Assembly (NCBI RefSeq): GCF_020969955.1
Contig: NZ_JAHDSX010000001.1
Span: forward strand, 60,001 to 92,000
Reading direction: 5' to 3'
Length of the DNA: 32,000 bases
Origin: Allobaculum fili
GTDB lineage: Bacteria; Bacillota_I; Bacilli_A; Erysipelotrichales; Erysipelotrichaceae
Within the stretch, counting starts at the first letter, position 1. Each line of letters begins with the position of its first letter. Shown one piece after another: positions 9,501-31,586 of this stretch. The position numbers and the translations under genes were made by a program. The notes under the pieces are model-generated. The model was given only the letters and a program-made list of their open reading frames with translations. It searched no databases and was not told the DNA's origin.

Positions 9501-9544
9501 GATATCCCCATCCGGCAATAGAAATCCGAAACAGAAATACGCAG

Positions 9545-9581
9545 TGCGCAGGGCCGTCGGCTTCTGCGCATTGTTCGTTTT
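9545..9581 (+). terminator. Rho-independent terminator after glgP
   Basis: Stem TGCGCAG (9545-9551) pairs with CTGCGCA (9564-9570) across a 12-nt loop. It is followed by TTGTTCGTTTT. Confidence 0.6.
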
Positions 9582-9909
9582 GCCCGTAAACCTTACGATT
9601 CTGCTTCAAATTGCAAAAACAGGATTTTTTTACACCCGTAGATCCGGGAAGAGGAAAAATATAGAATCAGCCAGCGACCCGCTTCGCGTCGGGCGTACGC
9701 AAAAATGACCGGGGAGTTTCTTTGCGTACCAATCCGGCTGCACGGTTCCTGGACAAAGTTGTCCGCTTTTTATGAAGCGCTCTTTCAGGGCGCGCAGGAC
9801 TTGTTTTACCCCCACTCAGGATTCACCCGAGCATCCGCAAAGGGATCCGAAAACAATTTACGTATTCGAAATACCATCCAAAAATAAAAAGGAGAATGAA
9901 CGGGCAGAT

Positions 9910-12900
9910 ATGAACCGACCTAGAATCAAAATTCCTTCTTTGATTCCCGTAGAAATCGAAGAGGAACCCAGAGAAACCGATTCTGTTTTTGCGCCTGAAA
10001 CCGCCCTCGAAACAGAATCTGCAGCCCCTGCACAGGCTTCTCTCATCACGACCAATTCCCCGCAAAACGATCATTCGCCCGCTAACCTGGAAGCGGGACA
10101 GGAAAAGGCTCTGTCCAGTACGGAGTCCCTTTCTCATGCCGAATTAACGGCCGCTATCCCTGAAGATCTGCAGCCGGCATCCGCCGATGCAGACGCGCCC
10201 AAAGCGCCGGAAAAGAGCGCGCAGAGCGTGCAGCCTGCCAGTGCGCCACAAGCAGCTAAATCCGAATCTGTCAGCACGGCACAATCGAAAGAATCGAGCG
10301 CACCGGCAATGAAAGCCGCAGAAACAAAGCCTTCTTTCCAGCCTGCAGCCCCTGCGCCAAAACAGCCGCTGAAACCGGAACAGGTTCTCGAAAAACTGGT
10401 GATCGATCCGATCGTCATGAAGCTCAATCCGCTTGACGATCCAACCGAGATTCCGCCGGCCATTTATGATCTGGCGGTCCAGATTACCGACAACTGGGAT
10501 CTTCTCGAACCTGTGTTCGATGCGCTTCGCACATCCCTTATCAGCAAGGATTATTCCTTTTCCGTCACTGCAAGAAACGGTGTGGAACGAAAGAAACTGG
10601 TGTCCATGCTTTCCGGCATGGCGGGGCTGATGGCCGGCGTAGCCGAAACCGGCAAAAATGGCGTATCCGTTTCCGGACGCCTGATCCCAACACAGCGAGG
10701 CATAAAATTTGTGAGCGGAAGTTTCCTTGAAATGGCGTGCTACCAGAAAGTCAGAAAAATCGTGGAACGTCTGGCAGCGCAGGAAAAAGTCAGCTGGGGC
10801 GTGTATCCCAACGTCGTTGTAACCGACAAGCAGAATGGACTTGCGGTCAATGAATTCGACATGGTCATTGTCTTCGACGAAGACCTTTACGTTGTTGAGG
10901 TGAAGAGCGGCCATCAGTTCTCGGATTATGACAAGTACATGGCCGTCATTAAGAACTACTCTCTGGAAGACCATTTCCTGCTGATCGGAAACAGCCTGAC
11001 GAAAAACCAGGCGGAGTATGTCCGCTACTTCTGCGGCTATGCGGTCTGCACTTTGCAGCCCAATTTCCTTTACGACACGCTCGCCACGCTTTTCAAAAGC
11101 GGTCTGAAAGCCTCCCGGGAAGCGGCAGCACGTGAAGAAGAAGCCAGACAAGCGCGCCAGGCAGAGTTTGAAGCCCAGCGCAAGGCGGCTATCGAGAAAT
11201 CCAAAGCCGAAAGTGCCATGCGTAAAGCCAAAGCGCAGGAAGCCGCCCGTCTCGAACGGGAACGTCTGGGAAAAGAACGCCAGGAAGCCCAGCGCCGCGA
11301 GAAGGAACGTCTCGAACGAGAACGCCAGAAAGCGGAATGCCGTGAGAAAGAGCGCCTGGAAAAGGAACGCCTTGCCTTAGAGCGCATGGAAGAAGATCGT
11401 CTGGAAAAAGAGCGTGCCAAAAAGGCGGAAGAAGAAGCCAAAGCGAACAAATCCGCAGCCAAACGGGACGACGCTTCCCAGACCCCTGCCAGTCAGACGG
11501 CCAGATCGGCCTCTGAGGCAAGCCAGAACGCGGAAGCAGCCAAACCTGCAGCAGAATCCGCCAAACCTGCAGCAGAATCCGCAGACGTGTTGAATCTCAC
11601 TGTCGCCAAACCGGCACAAACCGCGACTGCCAAATCCGTTTTAAAAACGGCGGAAAAAGAGCCGAAAGCGGAGCCGGTAAAGACACCCAAACCAGCAGAA
11701 ACGCCAGAAGCTCCTGAAGTCCCAGTAAACCCAGAAACTGGAGCCGAAGAAAAAGCTGAACGGCCGGAACCCGCAAACAGTGAAAAAGCGGAAGAAACCG
11801 TCGAAACTGCTGAGCCATCCAATGCGGAGAATTCCAGCGAACCTGTTATGGAAGCTGAACCCGAAGGCAGCAATACGGCAGAAGAACCGATCAGTCCGAC
11901 AGAGCTGTCCGCTGAAAAAGAATCTGAATCAGCGGAAACACCAGTCGAAACCTCGACGGATCTCGCTGGAGCGATCGAAAACACTGAACAGGTTCAGGAA
12001 GAAATGCCTGCCGCACCGGCCAAAGCACAGACGACGACCGAAACGCAGACAGAAACTCTGACTGTTGAAACGGGAGTGTCGAGTTCTGAAGCAGCGGAAA
12101 CGCCAGAACCGGAAGCGGAAGAAAAAGCAGAAACGGAAGAAGACTCTGCGGAAGCTTCCAGGGAAGAATCCGTTTCGACGGTTCCATCCAAAGAAGAAGT
12201 CAAAATGATTGCTGACGCTTCCAACGAAGAACGTCCAGCCGCACCTGCCGTATCCAGTGCAGAACCGGCTGAATCTCTCGAAAACCCGGCAAAAGCCGAA
12301 TCTGCTTCAGAAGACGAACAGACAGTACACCCTTCTGAAGCGTCTGAAACCGCGAAAACGGCAGAAGCATCGGAAGAAGCTGCTGAACCGGCGGTCGTTT
12401 CTGAAGAGACGTCCGCAAAGAGCGAAGACAATACGTCCAAGGCTGCGGATGAAAAAGCGGAAGGTCACCATGTCCTGACCGTTCGTCCGAATCATCTGCC
12501 GGCACCGGTGATTGCCTTTACGCTTACCGAAACCGAAACTGAGGTTTCTGCCCAGGCGGAAGCCGAAGAAGAAAAATTCGTACAGGACGTACTGAGCAAT
12601 CCGTCCGAAGAGACGAAGCAGCTGCTCGAAGAGGTCGAAAAAGCCGAAAAAGCGCTCGAGTCCGAGGCAAAACCGGCACCAGCCAAACGCCGTCGCACGA
12701 CAAAAGCCGAAGGCGAAAAGAAAGCCGCTCCAGCGCGCAGGGGACGCAAGCCTAAAGCCGAAAGCACCCAGACTGCAGAAACCGCCGAAACGGAAAAAGC
12801 AGCACCGAAACGCCGCCGCACGACGCGCAAAACGAAAGATGCAGCCGCCGAAACGGCGACAAAACCGGCAGCAGAAACCGCAGCGAGCCAAGAAGCCCAG

Positions 12901-13173
12901 GCTGCGGAAGCAAAGCCAAAGCGCAGAAGAAAAACCGCAGCCGCCAAGGAAGGAACCACGACAGCTGCTGCGGAAAACACTGCTGCATCCGAAAATTCCT
13001 CCAGCGGGGAAAAACCGAAACGCAAACGGAGAACCCCCGCAAAGAAAACCGCAGAATCCAGCGAAACGCCGGCCGCTCCAGCTGAAAACAGCGAGGAGAA
13101 GCCAAAGCGCAGACCCGGTCGAAAGAAAAAGACCGCAGAGGAATCTGCAGAGCAGGAAGGAGGAAATAGCTAG
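9910..13173 (+). CDS. Giant low-complexity protein (1087 aa) with an embedded PD-(D/E)xK nuclease-like core (Card1/DUF1887- or NERD-like), an ER/K charged helix, an acidic tract and a C-terminal AT-hook-like KRRR repeat tail; function unknown
   Basis: A single long ORF. ATG 9910 (MNRPRIKIP) is preceded by AAAGGAG at 9889-9895. The core spans about 10372-11112 and carries GSFLEMACYQKV ... NEFDMVIVFDEDLYVVEVKSG. The rest is compositionally biased, as detailed in the findings. The track start at 9772 has no RBS. Confidence 0.75.
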   Translation: MNRPRIKIPSLIPVEIEEEPRETDSVFAPETALETESAAPAQASLITTNSPQNDHSPANLEAGQEKALSSTESLSHAELTAAIPEDLQPASADADAPKAPEKSAQSVQPASAPQAAKSESVSTAQSKESSAPAMKAAETKPSFQPAAPAPKQPLKPEQVLEKLVIDPIVMKLNPLDDPTEIPPAIYDLAVQITDNWDLLEPVFDALRTSLISKDYSFSVTARNGVERKKLVSMLSGMAGLMAGVAETGKNGVSVSGRLIPTQRGIKFVSGSFLEMACYQKVRKIVERLAAQEKVSWGVYPNVVVTDKQNGLAVNEFDMVIVFDEDLYVVEVKSGHQFSDYDKYMAVIKNYSLEDHFLLIGNSLTKNQAEYVRYFCGYAVCTLQPNFLYDTLATLFKSGLKASREAAAREEEARQARQAEFEAQRKAAIEKSKAESAMRKAKAQEAARLERERLGKERQEAQRREKERLERERQKAECREKERLEKERLALERMEEDRLEKERAKKAEEEAKANKSAAKRDDASQTPASQTARSASEASQNAEAAKPAAESAKPAAESADVLNLTVAKPAQTATAKSVLKTAEKEPKAEPVKTPKPAETPEAPEVPVNPETGAEEKAERPEPANSEKAEETVETAEPSNAENSSEPVMEAEPEGSNTAEEPISPTELSAEKESESAETPVETSTDLAGAIENTEQVQEEMPAAPAKAQTTTETQTETLTVETGVSSSEAAETPEPEAEEKAETEEDSAEASREESVSTVPSKEEVKMIADASNEERPAAPAVSSAEPAESLENPAKAESASEDEQTVHPSEASETAKTAEASEEAAEPAVVSEETSAKSEDNTSKAADEKAEGHHVLTVRPNHLPAPVIAFTLTETETEVSAQAEAEEEKFVQDVLSNPSEETKQLLEEVEKAEKALESEAKPAPAKRRRTTKAEGEKKAAPARRGRKPKAESTQTAETAETEKAAPKRRRTTRKTKDAAAETATKPAAETAASQEAQAAEAKPKRRRKTAAAKEGTTTAAAENTAASENSSSGEKPKRKRRTPAKKTAESSETPAAPAENSEEKPKRRPGRKKKTAEESAEQEGGNS
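11539..11580 (+). repeat. Perfect 21-bp tandem duplication (2 copies) inside the giant ORF
   Basis: GCCAAACCTGCAGCAGAATCC occurs at 11539-11559 and again at 11560-11580. It is in frame and encodes AKPAAES twice. Confidence 0.95.
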
Positions 13174-14216
13174 TGGCGGAGACAACGGTAAATAAAGACA
13201 AATCGACGGTGAATAACCCGAAAAAATACGCTAGAAACAATACAGAATTTATTGCGGCTGACAAAATCACGTCCACGACCTTCTTCACCACGGGAGATGA
13301 GACGCTCGAGCGTCTCCATCCTGAGGGAAGCCGTACGCGTACGACGCTCGAAGCCGCGAAAGATGTTATGCAGGAAGTGGACTATGTCCTGGTCGAGGAG
13401 ATCGCCCGCTCCTGCTACCTTACCCCTTTGCAGTGCGCGGAGCTGGTCAGCCTCAGGCTGGCCAACTACTCCCGCAAGGCGATCTTCAATCACCTGACCA
13501 AACTCAGCAAGTACCATGTGCTGCAGGAAAAGGCGATTCTTCGCAAGGGAGGAACCAAACTGACCTGCTTCTCGCTCGATCTGTTTGGATCGCAGATTGC
13601 CAAGCAGTCCGTCCATATGCACGGCGGGAATGTCTATCTTTCCTATTCCAGACGCCGTGAACTCAACAAGCCGGAAAAGCCGCTGGACATTTTCCGTATC
13701 CTCGTCGGCAACCAGATTCTGGTGGGGATGCTCAAAAGCGGCGTCAGCATGAAGCGCTTCGGTGTTCAGGAAGTGTTCGCTTCCGTCAATCCGCAGGACG
13801 TAAAAAACGGTGCCATCATGCGTACGCCGGTCAATTTAACCCTCAATGACGGAAGCCGGCTGTTCTTTGAAGTCGTCCGCAATACGGACGAATCGCTCGA
13901 ACAGCTCTGTGAAAAGGTGAGTCGTTATTATTCGATTCTCGACAGCCAGTGGACGATGCTGGAAAGCCGCAATATGACGGATAAGACCAATATCTATGCC
14001 TGCTTGCCGCAGCTGGTAATCTGCACAGAAAGTCCGGCGGATGCCGAACAGGTGTATCAGGCGTTAAAAGAACGCAGTCTGATTCGCAAGGAAGATACGC
14101 TTCTGTTTACCGAAGACATTCTCCATCTGAAAAATTCGCTGATTTCCCTGTACGAATTCAAAGAAGACGGCAGCCGTCAATGGTATCGTCTGCCGGGCAT
14201 GAAACTCTACAAATAA
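13173..14216 (+). CDS. Winged-helix protein resembling the replication-relaxation (Replic_Relax, PD-(D/E)xK-related) family, 347 aa
   Basis: GTG 13173 shares one base with the upstream TAG (TAGTG). GGAAGGAGGAAA ends 9 nt upstream of it. The wHTH-like segment is VLVEEIARSCYLTPLQCAELVSLRLANYSRKAIFNHLTKLSKYHVLQEK..CFSLDLFGSQIA. It is followed later by RLFFEVVRNTDESLEQLCEKVSRYY, which resembles the fxEvDrgTe...l..K...Y block of Replic_Relax proteins. Confidence 0.6.
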   Translation: MAETTVNKDKSTVNNPKKYARNNTEFIAADKITSTTFFTTGDETLERLHPEGSRTRTTLEAAKDVMQEVDYVLVEEIARSCYLTPLQCAELVSLRLANYSRKAIFNHLTKLSKYHVLQEKAILRKGGTKLTCFSLDLFGSQIAKQSVHMHGGNVYLSYSRRRELNKPEKPLDIFRILVGNQILVGMLKSGVSMKRFGVQEVFASVNPQDVKNGAIMRTPVNLTLNDGSRLFFEVVRNTDESLEQLCEKVSRYYSILDSQWTMLESRNMTDKTNIYACLPQLVICTESPADAEQVYQALKERSLIRKEDTLLFTEDILHLKNSLISLYEFKEDGSRQWYRLPGMKLYK

Positions 14217-19290: not shown

Positions 19291-19338
19291 AAAAACGTGA
19301 GAATACGGTTCGAAAAATCGAAAAACACGTGAGAATAC
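19291..19338. repeat. Imperfect direct repeats in the 820-bp spacer upstream of ugd
   Basis: The core ACGTGAGAATAC occurs at 19295-19306 and 19327-19338, each preceded by an A-run. The tandem 8-mers CGAAAAAT and CGAAAAAC lie between them (19311-19326). A degenerate third copy, AAAAAAACGTAAAAA, lies at 19353-19367. Confidence 0.8.
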
Positions 19339-19795
19339 CGAGCGTAAAACTCAAAAAAACGTAAAAAGGTGTCGATCTGTTTGCTGGAAATACTAGGGTG
19401 AAGGCTGGCATGCGGTTATCAGATTTTCCTGTGAGGACGAAGACCGAGGATTCCTTTTGTCAGAAAATGGCCTTGAATAAGGGTGCCGGAAAATCGTGCG
19501 GAGTCCAGTTTTGCTAGAACAGCAAAGTTGAATTTGACTAGATTCATCTGAAAAAAGTGCAGAAACAGCCTCAAACGGCTGTTAAATTTAAAAACGAACC
19601 GAAAGAAATTGTGCACATAACTTGAATACGGGGCCAAAACAGCCCTTGTATAGCTTTCAATCTGTTAAATTATTCGTGTAACTCCTAAATCCAGTTGACC
19701 CGAACGGGCTGGCAGCTTTTGCAAAGTATGAACTGCTGACCATTTTTCCGAATGAGAGGTCTTTTGCGCGATTTGGGAAAGCAGAAAGGAACGCT

Positions 19796-23167: not shown

Positions 23168-24169
23168 ATGAAGCTAATTATTCAGATCCCCTGCTTTAAC
23201 GAAGCAGAAACCCTGGAAGTCGCTCTGAATGATCTTCCAAAGCATATTGATGGAATCGATGAAATTGAGTACCTCATTATCAATGATGGAAGCCACGACA
23301 ACACGGTTGAAGTCGCTAAAAAATGGGGCGTAAACTATGTCGTCAATTTTCGAAATAACAAAGGACTGGCCAGAGGATTTATGGCGGGTCTCGATGCCTG
23401 CCTGCGCAATGGAGCAGATATTATCGTCAATACGGATGCCGATAACCAGTACTGCGGAGAAGATATTGAAAAACTGGTACGCCCTATCCTGAATGGGGAA
23501 GCCGGCATGGTCATCGGCGAACGTCCGATTGATGATACAGAACATTTTTCTCCGCTGAAGAAGAAGCTCCAGCATCTTGGAAGCTGGGTGGTACGCAAAG
23601 CCAGTCAGACGGATATCCCCGATGCGCCAAGCGGTTTCCGTGCGTACTCCAGACATACAGCCATGCGAATGAACGTGGTGAATGACTACACCTACACTCT
23701 GGAAACCATCGTGCAGGCCGGTCGAAGAAAAATGGCTGTAACGAGTGTTCCAATCCGAACCAACCCGGAACTGCGCCCAAGCCGTCTTTTCCACAGCATG
23801 TTCGGCTATGTAAAGAAAAGCATGCTTACTATTCTGCGATCCATGATGCAGTACAAGCCGCTGTACTGTTTCACCATTCTCGGATCCATTCTCAGCCTGA
23901 TTGGCCTGATCGTGCTGATTCGTTTTCTTGTCTTTTATTTTCAGGGAGCTGGAAACGGTCACATTCAGTCTCTGGTTATCGCATGCATGTTGATTACGAT
24001 CGGCGTAATTGGCTTCTTCTGCGGACTGCTTGGAGACACAATTGCCGCAAACCGAAGACTGCTTGAAGAAGTTCAGTTTGAACTCAGACGAATGGACTAT
24101 GGCTTGAGTGAAGAAGAAGTGAAGCAAAAAGACGACCCGAACAAGGCTGGAGAATATGGTGGCGAATAA
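23168..24169 (+). CDS. GT2 polyprenol-phosphate glycosyltransferase (GtrB/CsbB/ArnC/DPM1-like) with two C-terminal TM helices, 333 aa
   Basis: IQIPCFNEAETL, LIINDGSHDNT, NTDADNQY (DxD) and PSGFRAYS are present. Two C-terminal hydrophobic helices follow (LYCFTILGSILSLIGLIVLI and LVIACMLITIGVIGFFCGLLG), as is typical of GtrB-type enzymes. Confidence 0.85.
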   Translation: MKLIIQIPCFNEAETLEVALNDLPKHIDGIDEIEYLIINDGSHDNTVEVAKKWGVNYVVNFRNNKGLARGFMAGLDACLRNGADIIVNTDADNQYCGEDIEKLVRPILNGEAGMVIGERPIDDTEHFSPLKKKLQHLGSWVVRKASQTDIPDAPSGFRAYSRHTAMRMNVVNDYTYTLETIVQAGRRKMAVTSVPIRTNPELRPSRLFHSMFGYVKKSMLTILRSMMQYKPLYCFTILGSILSLIGLIVLIRFLVFYFQGAGNGHIQSLVIACMLITIGVIGFFCGLLGDTIAANRRLLEEVQFELRRMDYGLSEEEVKQKDDPNKAGEYGGE

Positions 24170-25094
24170 AAAGATTGATGCGGTAGTGGTCACCTTCAAC
24201 CGTAAAGAAATGCTGATGGAGACGATTCATGCCATCCTGACCCAGACGTATCCTGTTAATCGGCTGATCCTCGTGGATAACAACAGTACAGATGGGACAA
24301 TTGAGCATTTGAAAGCAGCGAGAGTTCTAAACGATTCGCGTGTAGAACTTGTGGCATTAGATCAAAACACAGGCGGAGCAGGCGGATTTCATGCGGGAAT
24401 GAAGAAGTCCTATGAAATCGGCGATGCGGATTGGGTTTGGATTATGGATGATGACGTTGAACCGGCATCGGACTGTCTTGAAAAGCTAATAGAAGCAGAA
24501 GAAAAACTTCCGCAGCCCGTCAGTTTTTTAGCCAGCTCCATTCGAGGATTGCAAGATGAACCGATGAACGTTCCTAAACTCCCAAAAGGAATGACCACAG
24601 GATATGTCGATTGGTATAAGTATCTAGGGGATGGAATCGTAAATATATCAAAGGCTACGTTTGTATCGCTTTTGATTAATGCGGACGCAATTAAAAAATG
24701 CGGACTTCCCTGGGCTCCATTTTTCATCTGGGGTGATGATTCAGAGTACACACAGAGAATCATTCGGGATTTTGGCCCTGCATACATGGTGGGAAAAAGC
24801 AAGGCAGTTCATAAGAGAAAATCAGCAGATGCCCTGTCCATTGTAAAAGAAGACAATCCGAATCGAATCAATATGTTTTTTTACTACTACAGGAATAACT
24901 TGATCGGATATTGGGAGTATGAAGGTGCATTGTACCGTTTCCTGTGCATGGGGAAACTGGGCTATGATTTCTTCCACGTTTTATTTAAAGGGAAGTATAA
25001 AGCTAAAAAAATGGGAGTGATTTTAAAAGCTTTTAATGCTTTTGTCTTTGGAACGTATGACAGACAGTCCTTTAAAAATCGGAGTCAGATATGA
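24156..25094 (+). CDS. GT2-family glycosyltransferase (WbbL/rhamnosyl- or galactofuranosyl-transferase-like subgroup), 312 aa
   Basis: VVVTFNRKEML, LILVDNNSTDGT and WVWIMDDDVEP (acidic motif) are present. The start overlaps the upstream stop by 14 nt; GTG 24159 is an alternative start. Confidence 0.8.
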   Translation: MVANKKIDAVVVTFNRKEMLMETIHAILTQTYPVNRLILVDNNSTDGTIEHLKAARVLNDSRVELVALDQNTGGAGGFHAGMKKSYEIGDADWVWIMDDDVEPASDCLEKLIEAEEKLPQPVSFLASSIRGLQDEPMNVPKLPKGMTTGYVDWYKYLGDGIVNISKATFVSLLINADAIKKCGLPWAPFFIWGDDSEYTQRIIRDFGPAYMVGKSKAVHKRKSADALSIVKEDNPNRINMFFYYYRNNLIGYWEYEGALYRFLCMGKLGYDFFHVLFKGKYKAKKMGVILKAFNAFVFGTYDRQSFKNRSQI

Positions 25095-26110
25095 ATGAAA
25101 AAATCGCTGTAGTAATACCGGTCTATAACGTTGAAAAGTATATCTCCAAATGTATTGAGAGTGTCTGTACTCAAAGTTACCCCAACTTGGAAATAATTCT
25201 GGTTGATGATGGCTCTACAGACTCCTCAGGAGAAATCTGTGATGCATATCAGAAAAAAGATGATAGAATCCGAGTTTTTCATACTCCTAATAGAGGCTTG
25301 TCCGCAGCCCGGAATTATGGTGTTCAGCAGTCAGAATCTAACTGGGTGATTTTTATAGATTCGGATGATTTTGTAACCTCTAGATATGTAGAAGATCTCA
25401 ACACCATTCGTTTGAAGGCAGGAAGCGAAATCTCTGTCACTCAGGTAAAAAAAATAAATGAAGAAAGTGCAGCGTATATATATTCTCAGAGTGGACTGAG
25501 TAAACTGGCTGCACCGGATATTGTAAAAATGACTGTTTCGGATGCTCTTGCCAATATGTACTACAGGAAGGGAATTCCGATTTATGCTCCAGGAAAACTT
25601 TATTTAAAAAGCATCTTAACGAAGCATCCGTTTCGTATAGGCGAGCAGTATGAGGATTTAAGCATCATGCATCACCTTTTTTCCGAAGCAAACGCGATTG
25701 GCTTTGCACAAGTGGAAAACTATTATTACCTGCAGCGTCCATTCAGTATCGTCAATTCTAAGTTTTCGGAAAATAAGATGATTCAGATTCCAATTTGCAA
25801 GGAAATCCATCAATTTATTGAAGAGAAATATCCGAAAGCATTATGCGCAGCAGAATCAAAACAGTTTGTTGTAGCTCTGAATTTATATGTTGACGCTCGG
25901 ACTCATCACGCAGACAAACAGGTCCTTCGAAAGCTGAAAAAAGAAGCAGGCCGTTACGTGACTAATATTCAAAAAGACAAGAATAATTCAACTGCAATAC
26001 GTCTGCTGGCTAAATTGTTTCCTGCGAGTTTAGTGCTGCTTCCAAGTGCAATGCAGATCCTGAGGAAAGCGCAGAATGCAGGCTGGATTAAAATTAATAA
26101 CCCATTTTAG
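25091..26110 (+). CDS. GT2-family glycosyltransferase, 339 aa
   Basis: IAVVIPVYNVEKYI, IILVDDGSTDSSGEICD, NRGLSAARN and FIDSDDF are present. An ATGA overlap joins it to the upstream gene. CGGAG lies 6 nt upstream. Confidence 0.85.
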   Translation: MNEKIAVVIPVYNVEKYISKCIESVCTQSYPNLEIILVDDGSTDSSGEICDAYQKKDDRIRVFHTPNRGLSAARNYGVQQSESNWVIFIDSDDFVTSRYVEDLNTIRLKAGSEISVTQVKKINEESAAYIYSQSGLSKLAAPDIVKMTVSDALANMYYRKGIPIYAPGKLYLKSILTKHPFRIGEQYEDLSIMHHLFSEANAIGFAQVENYYYLQRPFSIVNSKFSENKMIQIPICKEIHQFIEEKYPKALCAAESKQFVVALNLYVDARTHHADKQVLRKLKKEAGRYVTNIQKDKNNSTAIRLLAKLFPASLVLLPSAMQILRKAQNAGWIKINNPF

Positions 26111-26122
26111 GAGGGCCACAAT

Positions 26123-27229
26123 TTGAATGGACTTGTAAGTGTAGTGATCCCTGTATATAACGGAGAAAAATTCCTCAAAGAAACTGTCAGCAGAATTCAA
26201 AACTCAAAATATGAAAACATAGAAATTATTCTTGTGAATGATGGCAGTACAGATACAAGTCAGCACATATGTGACGCTCTGGCAAAGCAGGATAAAAGAA
26301 TCAGGATCTTCCAAAAAGAAAATGGCGGAATCGCGGACGCCAGAAATTATGGAATGAGACAGGCAGTCGGTGAGTTCATCTGTTTTGTTGATCAGGATGA
26401 TGTAGTAGCACCGGACATGTATCAAGATTTAGTGACTCTGTTGAATCAGGATGATTCCGATTTTGCAATGGGTGGTACAGCAAAATTAGCGGGTGATGGA
26501 ACTACCCCTTTTGAAACTTTTGATGATGGCTGTTTTAACAAACAGCAAATTTATCACGATTTTTTTCTCTCAATGGTTTATGGCAGTTTTTTACCTGCTC
26601 AGGCCGAGAATTCAAAAAGACATTATCCATCTATTTGGAAATGCCTTTTTCGTAGAGCATTTATTGATGAAAATTCGCTGACGTTCAGAAAAATTATTGA
26701 CTTTGAAGATGATTTGACGTTTATGCAGGAAGCTTATTTGTATGCGAATTGTGTATCGACATCTTCAAAGATCTATTACTACTGGAGAATAAATCTAGGC
26801 TCTGAGAGTTATACATACAAATATATTAAAGATTATGATCAAAGATACAAAAATTATTATGATTATATTCTTGGGATCCTCGAAAAATCAAAACTTAGCG
26901 AGCAGGAGATCAGATCCTGGCAGCAAATTCTCTGCGGTCAGTATCTTATTGGAAAGATTGAGAATATTAATTCTCCGAATAATCCGGCTGGTTATTTTGA
27001 AAAAACGAAACAGACAAAAAAAGCAATACAGCACGTTCAAAACCAGACGGACTCCATTTCAAAGTTACAGGTCAGAAAAGGTGTGGTTAAAAACCGAGTT
27101 TTTCTTAGTCTGATTCGAAAGAGGTTTTATTTTTTGATTCCTCCCGCGGTCTACTTTTTTAATCGTGCCGGATCAAAAATGCAGAAGAATAATTTTTTAT
27201 CACACATTTCATACCTCACGAAAAAGTAG
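26123..27229 (+). CDS. GT2-family glycosyltransferase, 368 aa (TTG start)
   Basis: VSVVIPVYNGEKFL, IILVNDGSTDTSQ, NGGIADARN and FVDQDDV are present. AGGAGGG lies 6 nt upstream of TTG 26123. There is no in-frame ATG nearby. Confidence 0.85.
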   Translation: MNGLVSVVIPVYNGEKFLKETVSRIQNSKYENIEIILVNDGSTDTSQHICDALAKQDKRIRIFQKENGGIADARNYGMRQAVGEFICFVDQDDVVAPDMYQDLVTLLNQDDSDFAMGGTAKLAGDGTTPFETFDDGCFNKQQIYHDFFLSMVYGSFLPAQAENSKRHYPSIWKCLFRRAFIDENSLTFRKIIDFEDDLTFMQEAYLYANCVSTSSKIYYYWRINLGSESYTYKYIKDYDQRYKNYYDYILGILEKSKLSEQEIRSWQQILCGQYLIGKIENINSPNNPAGYFEKTKQTKKAIQHVQNQTDSISKLQVRKGVVKNRVFLSLIRKRFYFLIPPAVYFFNRAGSKMQKNNFLSHISYLTKK

Positions 27230-27303
27230 ATACTCAATTATTGACGATTGAAGGTTAGCTGCTAATTGAACTGGCTCTTGTTATTAGATTAGAAAGGCCC
27301 TAT

Positions 27304-28398
27304 ATGAAAAAGATTATCGCTTTGTATTTGCCTCAGTTTCATAGAATTCCTGAAAACGATGAATGGTGGGGGCCAGGATTTACGGATTGGGTGAATGTAA
27401 AAAAAGCTGTTCCCTTATTTAAAGGGCATTTACAGCCTAGAGTTCCTCTTAACCACAATTACTATGATTTAAGCGATCCCAAAGTTCTTGCAGACCAATC
27501 TAGTTTAGCCCTGGCTTATGGAATTGATGGATTTTGTTTTTACCATTACTGGTTTAATGGGAAGCTTCTGCTTGAAAAACCGGTTGAACAGTTACTGACA
27601 AATACGGATGTAAAAATTCCTTTTATGTTTTCCTGGGCTAATGAGACCTGGGCAAGGACCTGGGACGGTCGAGAAAAAAACATACTTATTCAGCAAGAAT
27701 ATGGAGGGGAAAAAGACTGGGAATCCCATCTGCAGTATTTTCTGCCCTTTTTTAAAGATGAGCGATACATCAAAATCGATAACAAGCCAGTTCTGCTTCT
27801 TTATACTTCTTCTCGAATTCAAAACTGTGCAGAGATGGTCGATTTTTGGAATAGAAGACTGCGCGAATATGGATTTGATGGAATCTATATTCTCGAAACG
27901 CTTAACTATATTCAGCCAAAGCCTGTTTTACCAAATGCTGCTGGGACAATGACCTTCGAACCTGTATATACTTTTTCGAACGAGATGAAAAAACAGAGCC
28001 TTCCAGCAAAAATCGATCGTTTTTTGAAGGTAAATATGAATTTACATAAACTTACGAAGTATGACTCAAAAAGTGTGTTTGAAAATATAGCCAATCGCTC
28101 GCAACCTGAAAACAATAACCCTTCAGTCTGTGTTGGATGGGATAATACAGCGCGAAAAGGGAAAAACGGCAGCGTGATGGTAGATAATGATCCGCAATAT
28201 TTTAAGGATACGCTGCATAAACTCATGACTGAAGATACGACAGGACCATTTGTATTCATCAACGCATGGAACGAATGGGCCGAAGGAACGTATCTTGAGC
28301 CAGATAACTTTTATGGAACCAGATATCTGGAAATCATTGAGCAGGAGAAACAAAGAGAGAAAACGAATGACGAAAAAACGGAAAAGCCTAAAATATAA
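27304..28398 (+). CDS. WbsX-family putative glycosyltransferase (GH99-like fold), 364 aa
   Basis: The N-terminus IIALYLPQFHRIPENDEWWGPGFTDWVNV is the hallmark opening of the WbsX family found in O-antigen and cell-wall polysaccharide loci. GWDNTARKG and NAWNEWAEG blocks occur further on. Confidence 0.75.
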   Translation: MKKIIALYLPQFHRIPENDEWWGPGFTDWVNVKKAVPLFKGHLQPRVPLNHNYYDLSDPKVLADQSSLALAYGIDGFCFYHYWFNGKLLLEKPVEQLLTNTDVKIPFMFSWANETWARTWDGREKNILIQQEYGGEKDWESHLQYFLPFFKDERYIKIDNKPVLLLYTSSRIQNCAEMVDFWNRRLREYGFDGIYILETLNYIQPKPVLPNAAGTMTFEPVYTFSNEMKKQSLPAKIDRFLKVNMNLHKLTKYDSKSVFENIANRSQPENNNPSVCVGWDNTARKGKNGSVMVDNDPQYFKDTLHKLMTEDTTGPFVFINAWNEWAEGTYLEPDNFYGTRYLEIIEQEKQREKTNDEKTEKPKI

Positions 28399-29836
28399 CT
28401 TCATTATTTATATTCTCCGAACTTTGGTTGTAACCTGCTCTTCCTTGTTGATTTTCCCTTACGCCTCTCGAATGCTTGGTGTAGCACCGATCGGTAAAGT
28501 CCAATACATTCAGTCAATCGCATCGTATTTTCAGCTCTTTGCCTCGTTTGGTGTGACGACTTACGGAATTCGTGAAGGCTCTAAACACAGGGATGAACCT
28601 GTATTGCTGAACAAACTAATTATTGAGCTGATTGTAATAAATTTTATCTGTACTGTGATTTCTCTAATCGCCTATGGATTGTTTACTGCTTTATTTATTC
28701 CAGATACTTACTCGAAACTGCTATGGGTATTTTCGGTATACATTATTGTCTATGGCTTAAACTTTGACTGGTATTTTAATATCTATGAGCAATACACCTA
28801 TATAACAATTCGATCTGTAATTGGTTCGCTTTTATCTTTAGTAGTTGTATTTCTTTTTGTCAAAAGTCCTCAAAATTATCTTATTTATGCAGTGTCAATC
28901 GTAATTCCTTATGCTGTCAGCTTTATTCTGAATGGCGGAGAGATTGTAAAGAATTTAACGCGTGTTCAATTGTCCTTGAAATCGATAATGCGTCACTTGA
29001 AGCCTTTGACGGTAATTTTTTCTGTTATTGTCGCGACGAACGTATATTCATTACTTGACTCCTCTATGCTTGGAGCTATGCAGGGAGATATGAGTGTGGG
29101 GCTCTATACAGCAGCTTCAAAACTGACCAGACTTGCTTCAACTTTTGTTACTGGAATATTCGGAGTATTTACTCCTCGTTTGACTTATTACATAGGCTTG
29201 GGAAACAAAGAAGAGTATCGCAAACTGGCAACAAAGATTGCTCGTCTGATTATGCTGGGCGGAATTTTAATTAGCGTATATATGTCAGTATTCAGCAGAC
29301 AGCTGATTACCCTGTATAGCGGTGAAGCTTATTTAGCTGCAGATCCCGCTATGAAAATTCTCTCTATTAATTTTCTGTTTTCGATTGTTGACTGTTATAT
29401 GGGATGGCAGCTCCTGGTGCCAAACAATAAAGAATCCGTCATGCTGAAAGCCACGATAGTCGGTTCAGTAATTGACGTTCTTCTTAATCTTCTTCTGATC
29501 CCCCGGTTTAATGTACTTGGCGCAACTGCTGCCACCTTTGCAGCAGAAATTTCAGTGTTTATTCTCCTCTTCTTAAATTGCAGGCACATGGTAAAACTCA
29601 ATTCGGTGAAAAGAACCGTACTCAAAACTCTTCTTTCTGTTGGCGTTACGGTGGTTGGTATATATGCTCTCCAATTAAACGTTCTGAATTGGAAAATGGC
29701 GCTGCTTGTGGTCCTCCCACTTGCCCTAATTGTGAACTTAATTCTCTTATACTTGCTCAAAGAAAAGACTATTTTAGAGGTGTGTGATGAAATCAGAAGT
29801 AGAATTTCAACCCGCAAATATTCGAAAAACCAGTAA
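28367..29836 (+). CDS. wzx: Oligosaccharide/polysaccharide flippase (Wzx, MOP/PST family), 489 aa
   Basis: About 12-14 TM segments with a basic N-terminus (MTKKRKSLKYNFIIYILRTLVV). The overall pattern is that of polysaccharide biosynthesis protein flippases. I set the start at ATG 28367, overlapping the WbsX-family gene by 32 nt; the track ORF start at 28250 lies deep inside that gene. Confidence 0.75.
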   Translation: MTKKRKSLKYNFIIYILRTLVVTCSSLLIFPYASRMLGVAPIGKVQYIQSIASYFQLFASFGVTTYGIREGSKHRDEPVLLNKLIIELIVINFICTVISLIAYGLFTALFIPDTYSKLLWVFSVYIIVYGLNFDWYFNIYEQYTYITIRSVIGSLLSLVVVFLFVKSPQNYLIYAVSIVIPYAVSFILNGGEIVKNLTRVQLSLKSIMRHLKPLTVIFSVIVATNVYSLLDSSMLGAMQGDMSVGLYTAASKLTRLASTFVTGIFGVFTPRLTYYIGLGNKEEYRKLATKIARLIMLGGILISVYMSVFSRQLITLYSGEAYLAADPAMKILSINFLFSIVDCYMGWQLLVPNNKESVMLKATIVGSVIDVLLNLLLIPRFNVLGATAATFAAEISVFILLFLNCRHMVKLNSVKRTVLKTLLSVGVTVVGIYALQLNVLNWKMALLVVLPLALIVNLILLYLLKEKTILEVCDEIRSRISTRKYSKNQ

Positions 29837-31586
29837 ATATCTTCCTTGGCTGTTAATCATCTTAGGCGTTGTAAGTCTTTTAGTTATTCCCTTGATTGGT
29901 TACAAACAGGTTTCCATTCCGCAGATTTATCAAGATGAATTTGGGTATTGGGGAGATGCGGCTTTTTTCAACGGACAGAACTGGTCGACTGTAATTTCGA
30001 CGATTCCGTACTATTCTTTTGGATATTCGCTGATCCTAAAGCTATTCATTAGCTTAACTGGATCCTATACGAATGCTTATGCCCTGGCCCAAATGGTTAA
30101 CGGGCTATGGTTAGCGCTAACGTTCCTGCTGTTAATTCGTCTTATCAAACTGCTCTATCCTAAAACTATTAAAAGCAGTTGGGCAATTTTTTTCGCTTAT
30201 ATATCCGTTGTCTATGCTTCGAATATTCTTAATTCCCATTTCACATGGCCTGAGTGTTTTCTTTCGCTCTTGGTCGTGATGTTGACTGTGCTTTTTGTTA
30301 AGTTGCTTAAAACATACAACTTGATTTATTTTATAAGTATTTCTGTTTTGTGTGCCTACATCTATTATGTGCATCAGAGAATGATAGGCTTTGTTCTCTC
30401 TGTTTTTATAATATTAGTTATCTCGGTTTTTTTTCAAAAAACAAAGAGAGATGCCATCTTAAAACTTCTCATTTTTTTCCTTACTTTTGGAATCATCTAC
30501 TTTTTGTTTTCGCTTTTGAAGACGGATCTGATCAATAATCTTTGGGTGTCCAGTCCTAGTTCCAATGTAAATAACATTAGCGGGCAGGCAGGTAATATTC
30601 GATATCTGTTTACTATTTCAGGTATACGTGATTTTCTGCTTTCTTTTTCCGGAAAGCTATTTTATCTGTTTACTGCGACTTTTTTTGTGATTCCACTTCT
30701 CTTGCTCCGTAGTGTGACAAGACTGTTCAAATGGATTCAGGGAAAATCAAAACGGCACCAAAAAACTGGGGAAAATGCCTGCGCGGATGAGTTGGCTTTG
30801 GTTTACTTATTTGTCTTATTGTCCTTTCTTTTATCCGCAGGAATCAGCTCGGTTTCCATGATTACTCCAACGACAATTAGCCATGTGGTTTATGGCAGAT
30901 ATTTGGAGCCTCTTTATAGTGTTGGTCTGGCCCTTGGATTTGCAGAGCTGTTTCTTAGAAAAATGAGTTTTACAGAGTTGTTGATCTTAATGGGTATTTA
31001 CGCTCTAACTGTTCTTTCGGTTTCCTGGCAATGCAATCAGGGTGAGCTTCGATGGAGAGCACCGGTGAACAATAGTGCAGTTACATGGTTCGTAAAGGAA
31101 AACTGGATTGAATTGAGAAACTGTCTCTTACTCACTGGGATTGGAGTGGTGCTGCTCTTTATGGCAGAGAGAAAACGGATTCTCTATTGCCTCATTCTAA
31201 CGATAATGGGGATTTACTGGATTGTTACGGGCAATCAAGCTTACAAGGATCACGTAAGTGATTGGGGTGCCTATCAAGAAGACAATGTGGCAATCTCAGA
31301 ATATATTCGCAATTTCGAAAATCAGCATGATGAAAACATACAGGTAGTTATTGTAAATAGCGATATTGGTCGGCTTCCGAGCCGTAACCCAGGCAATGGC
31401 TTGCAGTTTTTAAATCCAAATGCAGAATTTGAGGTCTACTCAGAATGGGATCAGAGTTTGGCTAAGACGTTCGAAAATGGAGATGTTCCCGGACTTCTTG
31501 TTACTTCAGAAGCCGCTGATATTGAAGGTTTAGATGAGCCTGTGTATACCACTGACCATTACCAGATCTATATTCTGAAAGAATGA
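29787..31586 (+). CDS. Polytopic membrane protein, second putative GT-C-fold glycosyltransferase (paralog of 21435-23165), 599 aa
   Basis: AGAGG lies 6 nt upstream of ATG 29787 (GTG 29784 is also possible). The gene overlaps the flippase gene by 50 nt. It shares with the 21435 product the N-terminal block DE(F/I)..W..A....W(S).V.....YY.FGY..L and a later VH(Q/S)R block. Its soluble C-terminal domain is about 120 aa. Confidence 0.55.
   Translation: MKSEVEFQPANIRKTSKYLPWLLIILGVVSLLVIPLIGYKQVSIPQIYQDEFGYWGDAAFFNGQNWSTVISTIPYYSFGYSLILKLFISLTGSYTNAYALAQMVNGLWLALTFLLLIRLIKLLYPKTIKSSWAIFFAYISVVYASNILNSHFTWPECFLSLLVVMLTVLFVKLLKTYNLIYFISISVLCAYIYYVHQRMIGFVLSVFIILVISVFFQKTKRDAILKLLIFFLTFGIIYFLFSLLKTDLINNLWVSSPSSNVNNISGQAGNIRYLFTISGIRDFLLSFSGKLFYLFTATFFVIPLLLLRSVTRLFKWIQGKSKRHQKTGENACADELALVYLFVLLSFLLSAGISSVSMITPTTISHVVYGRYLEPLYSVGLALGFAELFLRKMSFTELLILMGIYALTVLSVSWQCNQGELRWRAPVNNSAVTWFVKENWIELRNCLLLTGIGVVLLFMAERKRILYCLILTIMGIYWIVTGNQAYKDHVSDWGAYQEDNVAISEYIRNFENQHDENIQVVIVNSDIGRLPSRNPGNGLQFLNPNAEFEVYSEWDQSLAKTFENGDVPGLLVTSEAADIEGLDEPVYTTDHYQIYILKE

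What the first reader, a model, noticed from the sequence alone, without database searches (positions are those of the whole stretch)
10711..10905. PD-(D/E)xK nuclease-type catalytic signature in the globular core
The core contains FVSGSFLEMACYQKV (Glu codon at 10729-10731). About 40 residues later comes NEFDMVIVFDEDLYVVEVKSG (Asp codon 10858-10860, Glu 10897-10899, Lys 10903-10905). The pattern is G-x-(W/F)-x-E, then hydrophobic strand-D, then hydrophobic strand-E-x-K. This is the arrangement seen in Card1/Can2-type DUF1887 nuclease domains and in NERD domains (..EiD.vv....l.viEvK..G). In those families the domain is usually coupled to a ligand sensor (CARF/SAVED). Here the preceding ~110 residues (nt ~10480-10710) are unassigned and could be a degenerate or novel sensor.
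Basis: partly seen in the sequence, partly recalled or inferred. Interest (0 to 1): 0.7.

Follow-up and report, generated by a model that had tools for sequence, protein, structure and literature searches.

The report
Sensor-less Can2-type nuclease with conserved partner
The flagged motif is real: it is the intact active site of a Can2/Card1-type (DUF1887) DNA/RNA-cutting domain that has no signal-sensing domain. Instead it always sits next to one conserved partner gene, in an undescribed gene pair found in the chromosomes of gut Firmicutes.

Summary
**Observation: confirmed.**
A further Glu lies at 10852-54.
- Each is unchanged in 125 to 126 of 127 relatives that share only about 25-40% identity.

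**What it is.**
- Profile searches, a confident structure model (pLDDT 90.9) and fold search all place the roughly 230-residue globular core in the Can2/Card1/VC1899 (DUF1887) nuclease family.

**Sensor idea: not supported.**
- The preceding ~100 residues match the N-terminal part of the Can2 nuclease domain itself, not a CARF or SAVED sensor.
- Typical family members are about 270 aa, too short to hold a CARF domain.

**New findings.**
- The gene (true start 9910) belongs to a family found only in Clostridia and Erysipelotrichales.
- Closer members share a short conserved N-terminal peptide followed by a disordered linker.
- The nuclease gene is almost always followed by one conserved partner gene of about 345 aa, here 13173-14216.
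- About half the loci add a ClpP-like protease, a soluble VirD4-like ATPase and a membrane protein. This window has none of these.
- The window copy, from an Allobaculum, carries a 687-residue disordered tail whose length differs between strains.

**Likely mechanism (inferred).** A metal-dependent nuclease controlled by its partner rather than by cyclic oligoadenylate.

**Verdict.** A new variant of a known kind, of moderate interest.

The parts
9910..13173 (+). Gene for the nuclease protein (1087 aa, stop TAG at 13171-13173). ATG 9910 is the likely true start, not the first in-frame ATG at 9772.
   Evidence: The gene call in strain variant P0105 starts at the equivalent Met. AAGGAGA lies at 9889-9895. 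The N-terminus aligns with the family N-terminus.
9910..9951 (+). N-terminal conserved peptide MNRPRIKIPSLIPV, a diverged form of the family motif M-[ILV]-K-A-x-A-L-x-x-V.
   Evidence: Alignment A1. The motif was matched in 21 of 108 sequences, all close members; distant members carry 'MSFIxxFLKPxS' instead.
9952..10416 (+). Low-complexity, probably disordered linker (residues 15-169).
   Evidence: Only 4-12 hydrophobic residues per 50 aa. The region varies in length and does not align across the family. Model confidence is low at the start of the core query.
10417..10683 (+). N-terminal accessory sub-domain of the nuclease domain (residues 170-258; beta-alpha-alpha-beta-alpha-beta-beta). It is not a CARF or SAVED sensor.
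   Evidence: Model secondary structure. Profile alignments map it to the post-CARF part of Can2-type proteins. Can2 and Cdn1 domain boundaries come from the papers. Scanned alone it has no Pfam match.
10693..11100 (+). PD-(D/E)xK catalytic core (residues 262-397; alpha-beta-beta-beta-alpha-beta-alpha-beta-alpha).
   Evidence: Pfam PF09002 and PF08378, PDB profile hits, model, Foldseek.
10717..10731 (+). G-x-F-x-E motif on the first core helix (G270, E274).
   Evidence: Invariant: G in 124 of 125 and E in 125 of 125. It lies in helix 106-136 of the model.
10852..10860 (+). E-x-D motif (E315, D317) on the second core strand. It aligns with the catalytic Glu276/Asp278 of Can2.
   Evidence: Each kept in 126 of 127 sequences. 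Aligned to Can2 'NELD'. Can2 active-site residues are named in PMC7969007.
10897..10905 (+). E-x-K motif (E330, K332) on the third core strand, followed by S-G.
   Evidence: Each kept in 126 of 126 sequences. It lies in strand 169-176 of the model.
11110..13170 (+). C-terminal disordered tail (residues 401-1087). It has an Arg/Lys/Glu-rich segment at 11110-11454, an acidic E/A/S/T/P-rich segment at 11707-12609, and five basic KRRR / RGRKPK (AT-hook-like) motifs at 12682-13134.
   Evidence: Composition profile and strain variants: P0105 lacks residues 632-822. Degenerate 45-nt and 21-nt repeats. Typical family members of about 270 aa have no such tail.
13156..13165 (+). Shine-Dalgarno sequence (GGAAGGAGGA) for the partner gene, inside the end of the nuclease gene. 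The partner's GTG start at 13173 shares one base with the TAG stop.
   Evidence: Sequence read directly.
13173..14216 (+). Conserved partner gene (347 aa). It has a winged-helix-like N-terminal part (weak evidence) and a C-terminal domain of unknown fold.
   Evidence: It lies downstream on the same strand in 20 of 21 family loci, directly adjacent except in L050, and also downstream of distant members. It has no Pfam, PDB, PADLOC, PHROG or NCBIfam match. The exact sequence equals WP_230266526.1, hypothetical protein [Allobaculum fili].

Best explanation
The globular core (residues ~170-398) is a complete Can2/Card1/VC1899-type (DUF1887) PD-(D/E)xK nuclease domain with an intact metal-binding active site: E274, E315-x-D317 and E330-x-K332. 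It has no CARF or other ligand-sensing domain.

**Shown here:**
- the fold assignment and family homology;
- invariance of the catalytic residues;
- absence of any detectable sensor;
- obligate linkage to one partner gene.

**Inferred:**
- The protein is an active Mg2+/Mn2+-dependent endonuclease that nicks DNA and/or cuts single-stranded nucleic acid, as Can2, Card1 and Cdn1 do.
- In Can2-type enzymes activity depends on how two nuclease domains are positioned. Here the translationally coupled partner of ~345 aa would provide control or targeting in place of cyclic oligoadenylate.
- The conserved N-terminal peptide on its flexible linker would act as a docking element for the partner. In loci that have them, it might instead dock to the ClpP-like protease and VirD4-like ATPase.
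- The pair most likely acts inside the cell in a genetic-conflict role, as a defence-like or toxin/antitoxin-like module.
- In Allobaculum the enzyme has gained a long disordered tail ending in basic AT-hook-like motifs, which probably tethers it to DNA.
For: **Fold and family.**
- Pfam PF09002 and PF08378 at their thresholds; homologue L038 scores 32.5 bits on PF09002.
- PADLOC CARF_PDDEXK models at 1.2e-10 to 2.5e-15, plus the stand-alone model PDLC01131 'same family as the one fused to CARF (1XMX)'.
- Family profile against PDB sequences: Can2 6.4e-9, VC1899 1.6e-7.
- AlphaFold model with pLDDT 90.9 and pTM 0.88. Foldseek top hits are VC1899 at 3.8e-9, then Cdn1 and Can2, aligned over 229-256 columns.
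- The motifs fall on helix 1, strand 2 and strand 3 of the core, as in PD-(D/E)xK enzymes.

**Catalysis under selection.** The catalytic residues are kept in 125-126 of 127 sequences at about 25-40% identity.

**No sensor.**. Typical members are 250-330 aa. The window has no CRISPR-like array and no Rfam hit.

**Partner linkage.**
- Downstream on the same strand in 20 of 21 loci and downstream of distant members.
- One-base stop/start overlap with a GGAGG upstream.

**Conflict-like evolution.**
- At a syntenic site, the nuclease core is 41% and the partner 44-53% identical to the A. mucilyticum copies. The flanking GalT and MalK are 88% and 82% identical.
- Distant relatives are fused to the DarT1-associated NADAR antitoxin domain.
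- One locus has KptA/Tpt1 immediately upstream.

**Tail.**
Against: - No biochemical data exist for any family member.
- VC1899 keeps the same catalytic residues yet was inactive in vitro (PMC7969007), so conserved residues do not prove activity.
- The partner's fold and function are unknown. The single-sequence model was unusable (pLDDT 44.8). It matches no antitoxin, immunity or defence family.
- Flanking genes in most loci are housekeeping genes, not defence islands.
- PADLOC recognises no system.
- The roles proposed for the N-terminal peptide and for the ClpP-like and VirD4-like genes are conjecture.
- The substrate, DNA or RNA, cannot be inferred: Cdn1 cuts only RNA.
Confidence: 0.55

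Rival explanations
1. One reading: a ligand-gated effector. Residues ~157-260 would form a degenerate or novel sensor, a CARF/SAVED substitute, that binds a small-molecule signal and switches the nuclease on.
For: The closest characterised relatives (Can2, Card1, Cdn1) are all gated by cyclic oligoadenylate. NCBI names one member 'DUF1887 family CARF protein'.
Against: - These residues align with the post-CARF part of Can2-type profiles, which belongs to the nuclease domain in the solved structures.
- Scanned alone, they match no CARF, SAVED or other family.
- Members are too short for a ~150-residue CARF domain.
- The window has no CRISPR array and no cyclase context, and its neighbours are carbohydrate genes.
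Confidence: 0.06
2. An exported toxin with an immunity protein. The N-terminal peptide and linker would be a secretion signal, the nuclease domain a toxin delivered to competitors, and the downstream gene its immunity protein. The VirD4-like ATPase, polytopic membrane protein and ClpP-like protease would form the export and processing machinery.
For: - The layout is conserved short N-terminus, variable linker, C-terminal nuclease, then a tightly coupled downstream gene.
- About 10 loci add a VirD4/TraG-like ATPase, a multi-pass membrane protein and a ClpP-like gene.
- The pair diverges fast relative to its flanks.
Against: - The toxin domain is constant rather than polymorphic.
- The partner, at ~345 aa with a DNA-binding-like winged helix, is unlike typical small immunity proteins.
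- About seven loci with enough downstream sequence, the window among them, lack the ATPase and protease genes.
- The window's tail, 687 aa with AT-hook-like motifs, fits an intracellular DNA-bound protein.
- Known T4SS substrates usually carry C-terminal signals (general knowledge).
Confidence: 0.12
3. A DNA-processing module of an integrated mobile element. The nuclease and the winged-helix partner would act like a relaxosome, nicking at a specific site, and the VirD4-like coupling ATPase and membrane protein would move the DNA.
For: A T4SS coupling-protein homologue (PF02534, PF12696, PF10412) lies in the same operon in about 10 loci. UmuC/YolD genes lie next to one locus. Can2 is a DNA nickase.
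Against: - No integrase, recombinase, relaxase or other T4SS gene was seen in any locus examined.
- tblastn found no match in 72,556 plasmids or 50,697 phages, and the DNA pattern found none in 2.9 million viral contigs.
- The site is syntenic between two Allobaculum species, with housekeeping flanks.
Confidence: 0.1
4. A catalytically silent nucleic-acid-binding scaffold. The domain would only bind DNA or RNA, as VC1899 appeared to in vitro. The long tail would make the protein a nucleoid-associated or structural factor.
For: VC1899 keeps the active-site residues but was inactive in vitro. The window protein is about 80% disordered, with histone-tail-like basic repeats.
Against: Five catalytic residues stay invariant across 127 sequences while the rest diverges to about 25% identity, which argues for selection on chemistry. 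The tail is a lineage-specific addition that most members lack.
Confidence: 0.1

Closest known systems
Can2 / Card1 / Cdn1 (DUF1887, Pfam PF09002 Card1_endonuc; CARF4-clade type III CRISPR ancillary nucleases; PDB 7BDV, 8BAO, 8Q3Y-8Q44, 8Z4I/9U49)
   Same: The whole nuclease domain is homologous, including the N-terminal accessory motif. The active-site signature is the same: G-x-[WFY]-x-E, then E-x-D, then E-x-K. These are the best sequence-profile and fold matches.
   Different: - There is no CARF domain and so no site for cyclic oligoadenylate.
- No type III CRISPR context was seen in the window or in the loci examined.
- It has a conserved N-terminal peptide plus a disordered linker.
- It is obligately paired with an unrelated ~345-aa protein.
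- Family-profile scores are clearly bimodal: 216-318 bits for this family against 16-55 bits for canonical ~380-aa Can2-like proteins.
VC1899 of Vibrio cholerae (PDB 1XMX), founding DUF1887 structure
   Same: It is the top Foldseek hit (E 3.8e-9, 19% identity, 246 aligned columns). It has the same catalytic residues (Glu291/Asp293) and is not linked to a demonstrable cA4 response.
   Different: VC1899 keeps a full N-terminal CARF-fold domain. No conserved partner has been reported for it in the paper read here.
Stand-alone 'PD_DExK' CRISPR-linked model (PADLOC PDLC01131, described as 'same family as the one fused to CARF, 1XMX')
   Same: It is also a CARF-less version of the same nuclease domain. 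Homologue L038 matches it at E 6e-6.
   Different: The match is weaker than to the CARF-fused models. That model is 205 positions long and comes from CRISPR neighbourhoods. The present family has the N-terminal peptide, the accessory sub-domain and its own partner gene.
NERD domain (Pfam PF08378)
   Same: It belongs to the same PD-(D/E)xK superfamily and has the same E-x-D then E-x-K layout. The isolated core scores just above Pfam's threshold (23.1 against 22.1 bits).
   Different: The match covers only about 60 residues and is weaker than the overlapping Card1_endonuc match. The full-length protein scores below threshold (20.5 bits).

Membership tests
PD-(D/E)xK nuclease superfamily | An alpha-beta-beta-beta-alpha-beta core, with an acidic residue on strand 2 and (D/E)-x-K on strand 3. 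| tested here: met
   The model has helix 106-136, strands 140-150, 156-166 and 169-176, helix 186-193 and strand 200-204. E159/D161 lie on strand 2 and E174/K176 on strand 3, in alignment A2 numbering. Foldseek hits are all PD-(D/E)xK enzymes.
DUF1887 / Card1_endonuc nuclease domain (PF09002) | A profile match at or above Pfam's gathering score. | tested here: met
   The isolated core scores 26.5 bits against a cut-off of 26.4, which is borderline. The full-length ORF scores 23.2, below the cut-off. Homologue L038 scores 32.5 bits. The family profile hits Can2 7BDV at 6.4e-9.
DUF1887 / Card1_endonuc nuclease domain (PF09002) | Catalytic Glu/Asp (Can2 E276/D278) and the E-x-K motif are present and conserved. 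| tested here: met
   E315/D317 align with Can2 'NELD'. They are invariant in 126 of 127 relatives, and E330/K332 in 126 of 126.
Can2/Card1 CRISPR ancillary nucleases (CARF4 clade) | An N-terminal CARF (Rossmann-fold) domain that binds cA4 or cA6. | tested here: not met
   No CARF match for the full protein, the core or the isolated N-terminal sub-domain. Profile alignments begin after the CARF part of Can2-type models. Family members are 250-330 aa.
Can2/Card1 CRISPR ancillary nucleases (CARF4 clade) | Genomic association with type III CRISPR-Cas loci. | tested here: not met
   The 32-kb window has no repeat array. Annotated neighbours are carbohydrate and transport genes. None of the neighbours scanned in about 20 family loci is a cas gene. 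ORFs at 23168-31586 of the window were not scanned.
Can2/Card1 CRISPR ancillary nucleases (CARF4 clade) | A homodimer whose two nuclease domains form the substrate cleft on activation. | not testable with these tools
   No multimer prediction was available.
NERD domain (PF08378) | A profile match at or above the gathering score. | tested here: inconclusive
   The isolated core scores 23.1 against 22.1 bits and the full-length protein 20.5. The match is overlapped by the stronger PF09002 match.
Type II toxin-antitoxin or known anti-phage defence systems (PADLOC-DB) | Partner or system genes match a known antitoxin, immunity or defence model. | tested here: not met
   The partner, the ClpP-like protein, the VirD4-like protein and the membrane protein have no PADLOC hit. 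The nuclease hits only CARF_PDDEXK, Csx1 and PD_DExK models.

The most novel reading that the evidence does not exclude
The nuclease and its partner may be the core of an undescribed chromosomal system of gut Firmicutes. A Can2-type nuclease would have been taken out of cyclic-oligoadenylate signalling and placed under protein-based control. The partner would hold or target the enzyme. In the full five-gene form, a ClpP-like protease and a soluble VirD4-like hexameric ATPase, anchored by a polytopic membrane protein, would recognise the conserved N-terminal peptide to activate, degrade or move the nuclease. That would be either a new defence mechanism or a new route for handling DNA.
Probability: 0.25. 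Interest if true: 0.7.

Novelty: new variant of a known kind. Interest (0 to 1): 0.5.

Why it matters
Can2- and Card1-type nucleases are known only as effectors switched on by cyclic oligoadenylate in type III CRISPR immunity. This family keeps the whole catalytic domain under strict selection but has no sensor. It is instead tied to one uncharacterised partner protein across Lachnospiraceae, Oscillospiraceae and Erysipelotrichales.

If the partner does gate the enzyme, it would be an independent way to control a potentially self-destructive nuclease. It would also give a handle on a five-gene operon that no defence or mobile-element catalogue searched here recognises.

There is a practical point too. 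Public annotation of some members as 'DUF1887 family CARF protein' is misleading, because they have no CARF domain.

The Allobaculum copies are a natural example of a folded enzyme that has acquired a disordered tail of several hundred residues. The tail's length varies between strains.

Tried and rejected
**Searches that returned too little.**
- The word-indexed homologue search with the core found nothing. With alignments it returned only 4 proteins. The exhaustive representative search was needed.
- The peptide-pattern scan of genome contigs found nothing. A hand-made degenerate DNA pattern for NEFD...ExKSG worked instead.

**Partner protein.**
- No hit in Pfam, NCBIfam, PHROGs or PADLOC, and none by PDB profile search.
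- Profile-profile comparison with the nuclease family was negative (probability 0.3%), so the partner is not a detectable duplicate of the nuclease.
The single-sequence model was unusable (pLDDT 44.8), so no fold search was run on it.

**Hypotheses tested and not supported.**
- Phage or plasmid origin: no matches.
- ClpP-like, VirD4-like or membrane-protein genes elsewhere in the window: none.
- Sensor hypothesis for the N-terminal sub-domain: no support.

**Literature.** Searches for CARF-less or Can2-like stand-alone nucleases, and for a ClpP plus VirD4 plus nuclease system, found nothing relevant.
Full report
**1. The observation**

- The finding lies in ORF 9772..13173 on the + strand.
- Reading the DNA confirms F-V-S-G-S-F-L-E-M-A-C-Y-Q-K-V with Glu at 10729-10731.
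- It also confirms N-E-F-D-M-V-I-V-F-D-E-D-L-Y-V-V-E-V-K-S-G with Asp at 10858-10860, Glu at 10897-10899 and Lys at 10903-10905.
- The stated start, 10711, is one codon after the Phe at 10708. This is a trivial offset.
Shuffled sequences give 0.01 matches.

**2. Family assignment of the core**

- Pfam places the isolated core (10372-11112) on PF09002 Card1_endonuc at E 5.4e-6 and 26.5 bits, against a curated cut-off of 26.4. It places it on PF08378 NERD at 23.1 bits against 22.1.
- The full-length protein scores just under both cut-offs because of its long low-complexity regions.
- PADLOC's CARF4--CARF_PDDEXK model matches at 1.2e-10.
- An exhaustive HMMER search of 1.84 billion representative proteins found 104 relatives, 44 of them at E 1e-10 or better. 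Most are 250-330 aa.
- A profile of 39 of these hits the solved structures Can2 7BDV (6.4e-9), VC1899 1XMX (1.6e-7), Can2 8BAO and Cdn1 8Z4I.
- With that alignment AlphaFold2 gave a confident model: mean pLDDT 90.9 and pTM 0.88.
- Its 17 best Foldseek matches in the PDB are VC1899 (3.8e-9), Cdn1 and Can2, aligned over 229-304 columns (229-256 for the seven best). Other PD-(D/E)xK nucleases follow.
- In the model the G-x-F-x-E motif lies on the first core helix, E-x-D on the second strand and E-x-K on the third. This is the canonical PD-(D/E)xK layout.

**3. Conservation**

- In the 39-sequence alignment the only invariant columns are G270, E274, E315, D317, E330 and K332, numbered from Met at 9910.
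- Across 127 family sequences aligned to the family HMM, the five catalytic residues are kept in 125-126. The exceptions are fragments.
- E315-x-D317 aligns with the 'NELD' of Can2, whose Glu276/Asp278 are its active-site residues (PMC7969007).
The nuclease reading stands.

**4. The 'sensor' idea**

- The ~100 residues before the catalytic helix form a folded beta-alpha-alpha-beta-alpha-beta-beta unit in the model.
- Profile alignments map them to the part of Can2-type proteins that follows the CARF domain. Core residues 28-202 align to positions 159-315 of a 364-position CARF_PDDEXK model. The L038 homologue's residues 55-214 align to positions 154-295. Family profile positions 38-181 align to Cdn1 residues 192-330.
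- In the crystal structures the SthCan2 CARF domain is residues 3-151. Its nuclease domain is 166-366 and includes an extra motif of helices and two antiparallel strands. In Cdn1 the CARF-nuclease linker is residues 151-157 (PMC12825302).
- The whole globular core therefore equals a Can2-type nuclease domain.
- Scanned alone, this sub-domain matches no CARF, SAVED or other Pfam family, in the window or in four homologues.
- Upstream of it there is only a hydrophobic-poor linker.
- The window contains no CRISPR-like array and no Rfam family.

**5. The gene and its protein**

- The true start is most likely ATG 9910. It is preceded by AAGGAGA, and gene calls in other assemblies of the same species start there.
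- The N-terminus MNRPRIKIPSLIPV aligns with the N-terminal motif M-[ILV]-K-A-x-A-L-x-x-V shared by the closer family members.
- More distant members carry a different short N-terminal motif, MSFIxxFLKPxS.
- The 1087-aa window protein is built as follows:
  - residues 1-14, the N-terminal peptide;
  - residues 15-169, a disordered linker;
  - residues 170-398, the nuclease domain;
  - residues 401-1087, a tail.
- The tail has an Arg/Lys/Glu-rich stretch, then a long acidic low-complexity stretch. It ends in five basic KRRR / RGRKPK motifs that resemble AT-hooks.
- The tail is built from degenerate DNA repeats and varies between strains. P0105 is 893 aa and lacks residues 632-822. P0001 differs at the C-terminus.
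- Typical family members have no tail. Only the closest relatives have acidic tails: A. mucilyticum P0002 has about 50 aa and P0003 about 270 aa.

**6. Genomic context and organism**

- The neighbours are LacI, MalQ, a Na/Pi transporter and GlgP upstream, and MalK, GalT and GalE downstream.
- The downstream 347-aa protein is identical to WP_230266526.1 of Allobaculum fili.
- Allobaculum mucilyticum has the same gene order: glgP, nuclease, partner, malK, galT.
- GalT and MalK are 88% and 82% identical between the two species. The nuclease core is only 41% identical and the partner 44-53%.
- The pair therefore evolves much faster than its surroundings, or has been replaced by a divergent allele.

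**7. The conserved partner and the extended operon**

- A degenerate DNA pattern for NEFD...ExKSG retrieved 63 loci from GTDB species genomes.
- Scores against the family HMM are bimodal:
  - 216-318 bits for 18 loci. Seventeen come from Clostridia (Frisingicoccus, Fusicatenibacter, Roseburia, Mediterraneibacter, Bariatricus, Lachnoanaerobaculum, Dysosmobacter and others) or Allobaculum. One short fragment comes from a MAG labelled Odoribacter.
  - 16-55 bits for canonical ~380-aa CARF-nuclease proteins from Bacteroidota, Desulfurellales, Planctomycetota and methanogens.
- In 20 of 21 family loci a homologue of the window's 347-aa ORF follows on the same strand. It is directly adjacent except in L050.
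- The same holds for more distant members: P0024 scores 213 bits and P0033 103 bits.
- In the window the partner's GTG start overlaps the nuclease's TAG stop by one base and has a GGAGG upstream.
- The partner has a winged-helix-like N-terminal part, with only a weak Lrp/AsnC HTH similarity (E 0.087). Its C-terminal domain has its own invariant residues. It matches no known family and is not detectably related to the nuclease.
- About 10 loci continue with a ClpP-like protease (PF00574) and a soluble VirD4/TraG-like ATPase (PF02534, PF12696; Walker A present, no transmembrane segment). Some of these also carry a polytopic membrane protein.
- The window and about six other loci with enough downstream sequence lack the protease and ATPase genes.
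- Flanks elsewhere are mostly housekeeping genes: a tRNA synthetase, aconitase, CobW, HtrA and LacI.
- Neither protein has a match in 72,556 plasmids or 50,697 phages. The DNA pattern has no match in 2.9 million viral contigs.

**8. Mechanism**

- Shown: a complete Can2-type nuclease domain with its active site under strict purifying selection, no sensor, and an obligate translationally coupled partner.
- Inferred from the biochemistry of Can2, Card1 and Cdn1: metal-dependent nicking of DNA and/or cleavage of single-stranded nucleic acid. In those enzymes activity is governed by how two nuclease domains are arranged.
- With no CARF domain, the most economical regulator is the partner protein. 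The N-terminal peptide on its flexible linker is a plausible docking element.
- Several features favour a conflict-type role, defence-like or toxin/antitoxin-like:
  - fast divergence at a syntenic site;
  - patchy distribution;
  - fusion of distant relatives to the DarT1-associated NADAR antitoxin domain;
  - a KptA/Tpt1 gene next to one member.
- No known system model matches, and the neighbourhoods are not defence islands. This part is held at moderate confidence.
- Three rivals cannot be excluded without experiments: an exported toxin with an immunity protein, a mobilisation module, and an inactive DNA-binding scaffold. Each has specific evidence against it, listed under the rival explanations.

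**9. Comparison and novelty**

- The domain is a member of the DUF1887/Card1_endonuc nuclease family. Some orthologues are already labelled 'DUF1887 family protein' in GenBank.
- One orthologue is labelled 'DUF1887 family CARF protein'. That label is wrong as far as a CARF domain is concerned.
- The protein is not a Can2/Card1 effector in the defined sense, because two defining features were tested and not met: the CARF domain and the type III CRISPR association.
- Three things appear undescribed in the literature searched:
  - the CARF-less family with its N-terminal peptide;
  - its invariant partner and the optional module of protease, ATPase and membrane protein;
  - the Allobaculum-specific disordered tail.
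- I rate it a new variant of a known kind, with moderate interest.

Noticed in passing
window 11110-13170: The nuclease protein carries a 687-residue disordered tail: an Arg/Lys/Glu-rich stretch, then an acidic stretch, then five KRRR / RGRKPK AT-hook-like motifs. It is built from degenerate 45-nt and 21-nt repeats. Its length varies between strains; one variant lacks 191 aa (residues 632-822).
   Followed up: partly
window 9910-14216 compared with L017 3897-6286 (Allobaculum mucilyticum): The gene order glgP, nuclease, partner, malK, galT is the same in both species. The nuclease core is 41% and the partner 44-53% identical, while the flanking GalT and MalK are 88% and 82% identical. The module evolves far faster than its flanks.
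   Followed up: partly
P0081, P0084, P0094 (L074 3345-5339): Distant relatives of the nuclease domain are fused to an N-terminal DarT1-associated NADAR (ADP-ribosyl-DNA hydrolase antitoxin) domain. P0094 stands alone, with no partner gene, next to fatty-acid synthesis genes.
   Followed up: partly
L079 6308-6871: A KptA/Tpt1 RNA 2'-phosphotransferase gene (PF01885) sits directly upstream of a nuclease-partner pair. This is a second hint of a link to NAD-dependent modification of nucleic acid.
   Followed up: no
L038 2475-5696; also L055, L043, L057, L039, L044, L063, L005, L031 and L013: About half of the family loci extend the pair with a ClpP-like protease and a soluble VirD4/TraG-like ATPase. 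Some also carry a multi-pass membrane protein with an acidic C-terminus. This combination matches no PADLOC system.
   Followed up: partly
L050 6155-7447: In one Eubacteriales genome a gene for a membrane protein with a vWA-like DxSxS motif is inserted between the nuclease gene and the partner gene.
   Followed up: no
Public records: NCBI names the Frisingicoccus orthologue 'DUF1887 family CARF protein' although it has no CARF domain. In Allobaculum sp. Allo2 the partner appears as two fragments of 136 and 132 aa, which may be a pseudogene.
   Followed up: no
window 25000-31000: G+C content falls from about 0.50-0.55 to about 0.37-0.40 over a run of same-strand ORFs downstream of a UDP-glucose dehydrogenase gene and a glycosyltransferase gene. 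This may be a horizontally acquired polysaccharide locus.
   Followed up: no
window 19291-19362: An intergenic tandem repeat of 32 nt in 2.3 copies lies upstream of the UDP-glucose dehydrogenase gene.
   Followed up: no
window 9541-9574: A terminator-like hairpin lies just after glgP. A 335-nt untranslated gap follows before the nuclease gene's start at 9910, and no sigma-70-like promoter was detected in it.
   Followed up: no
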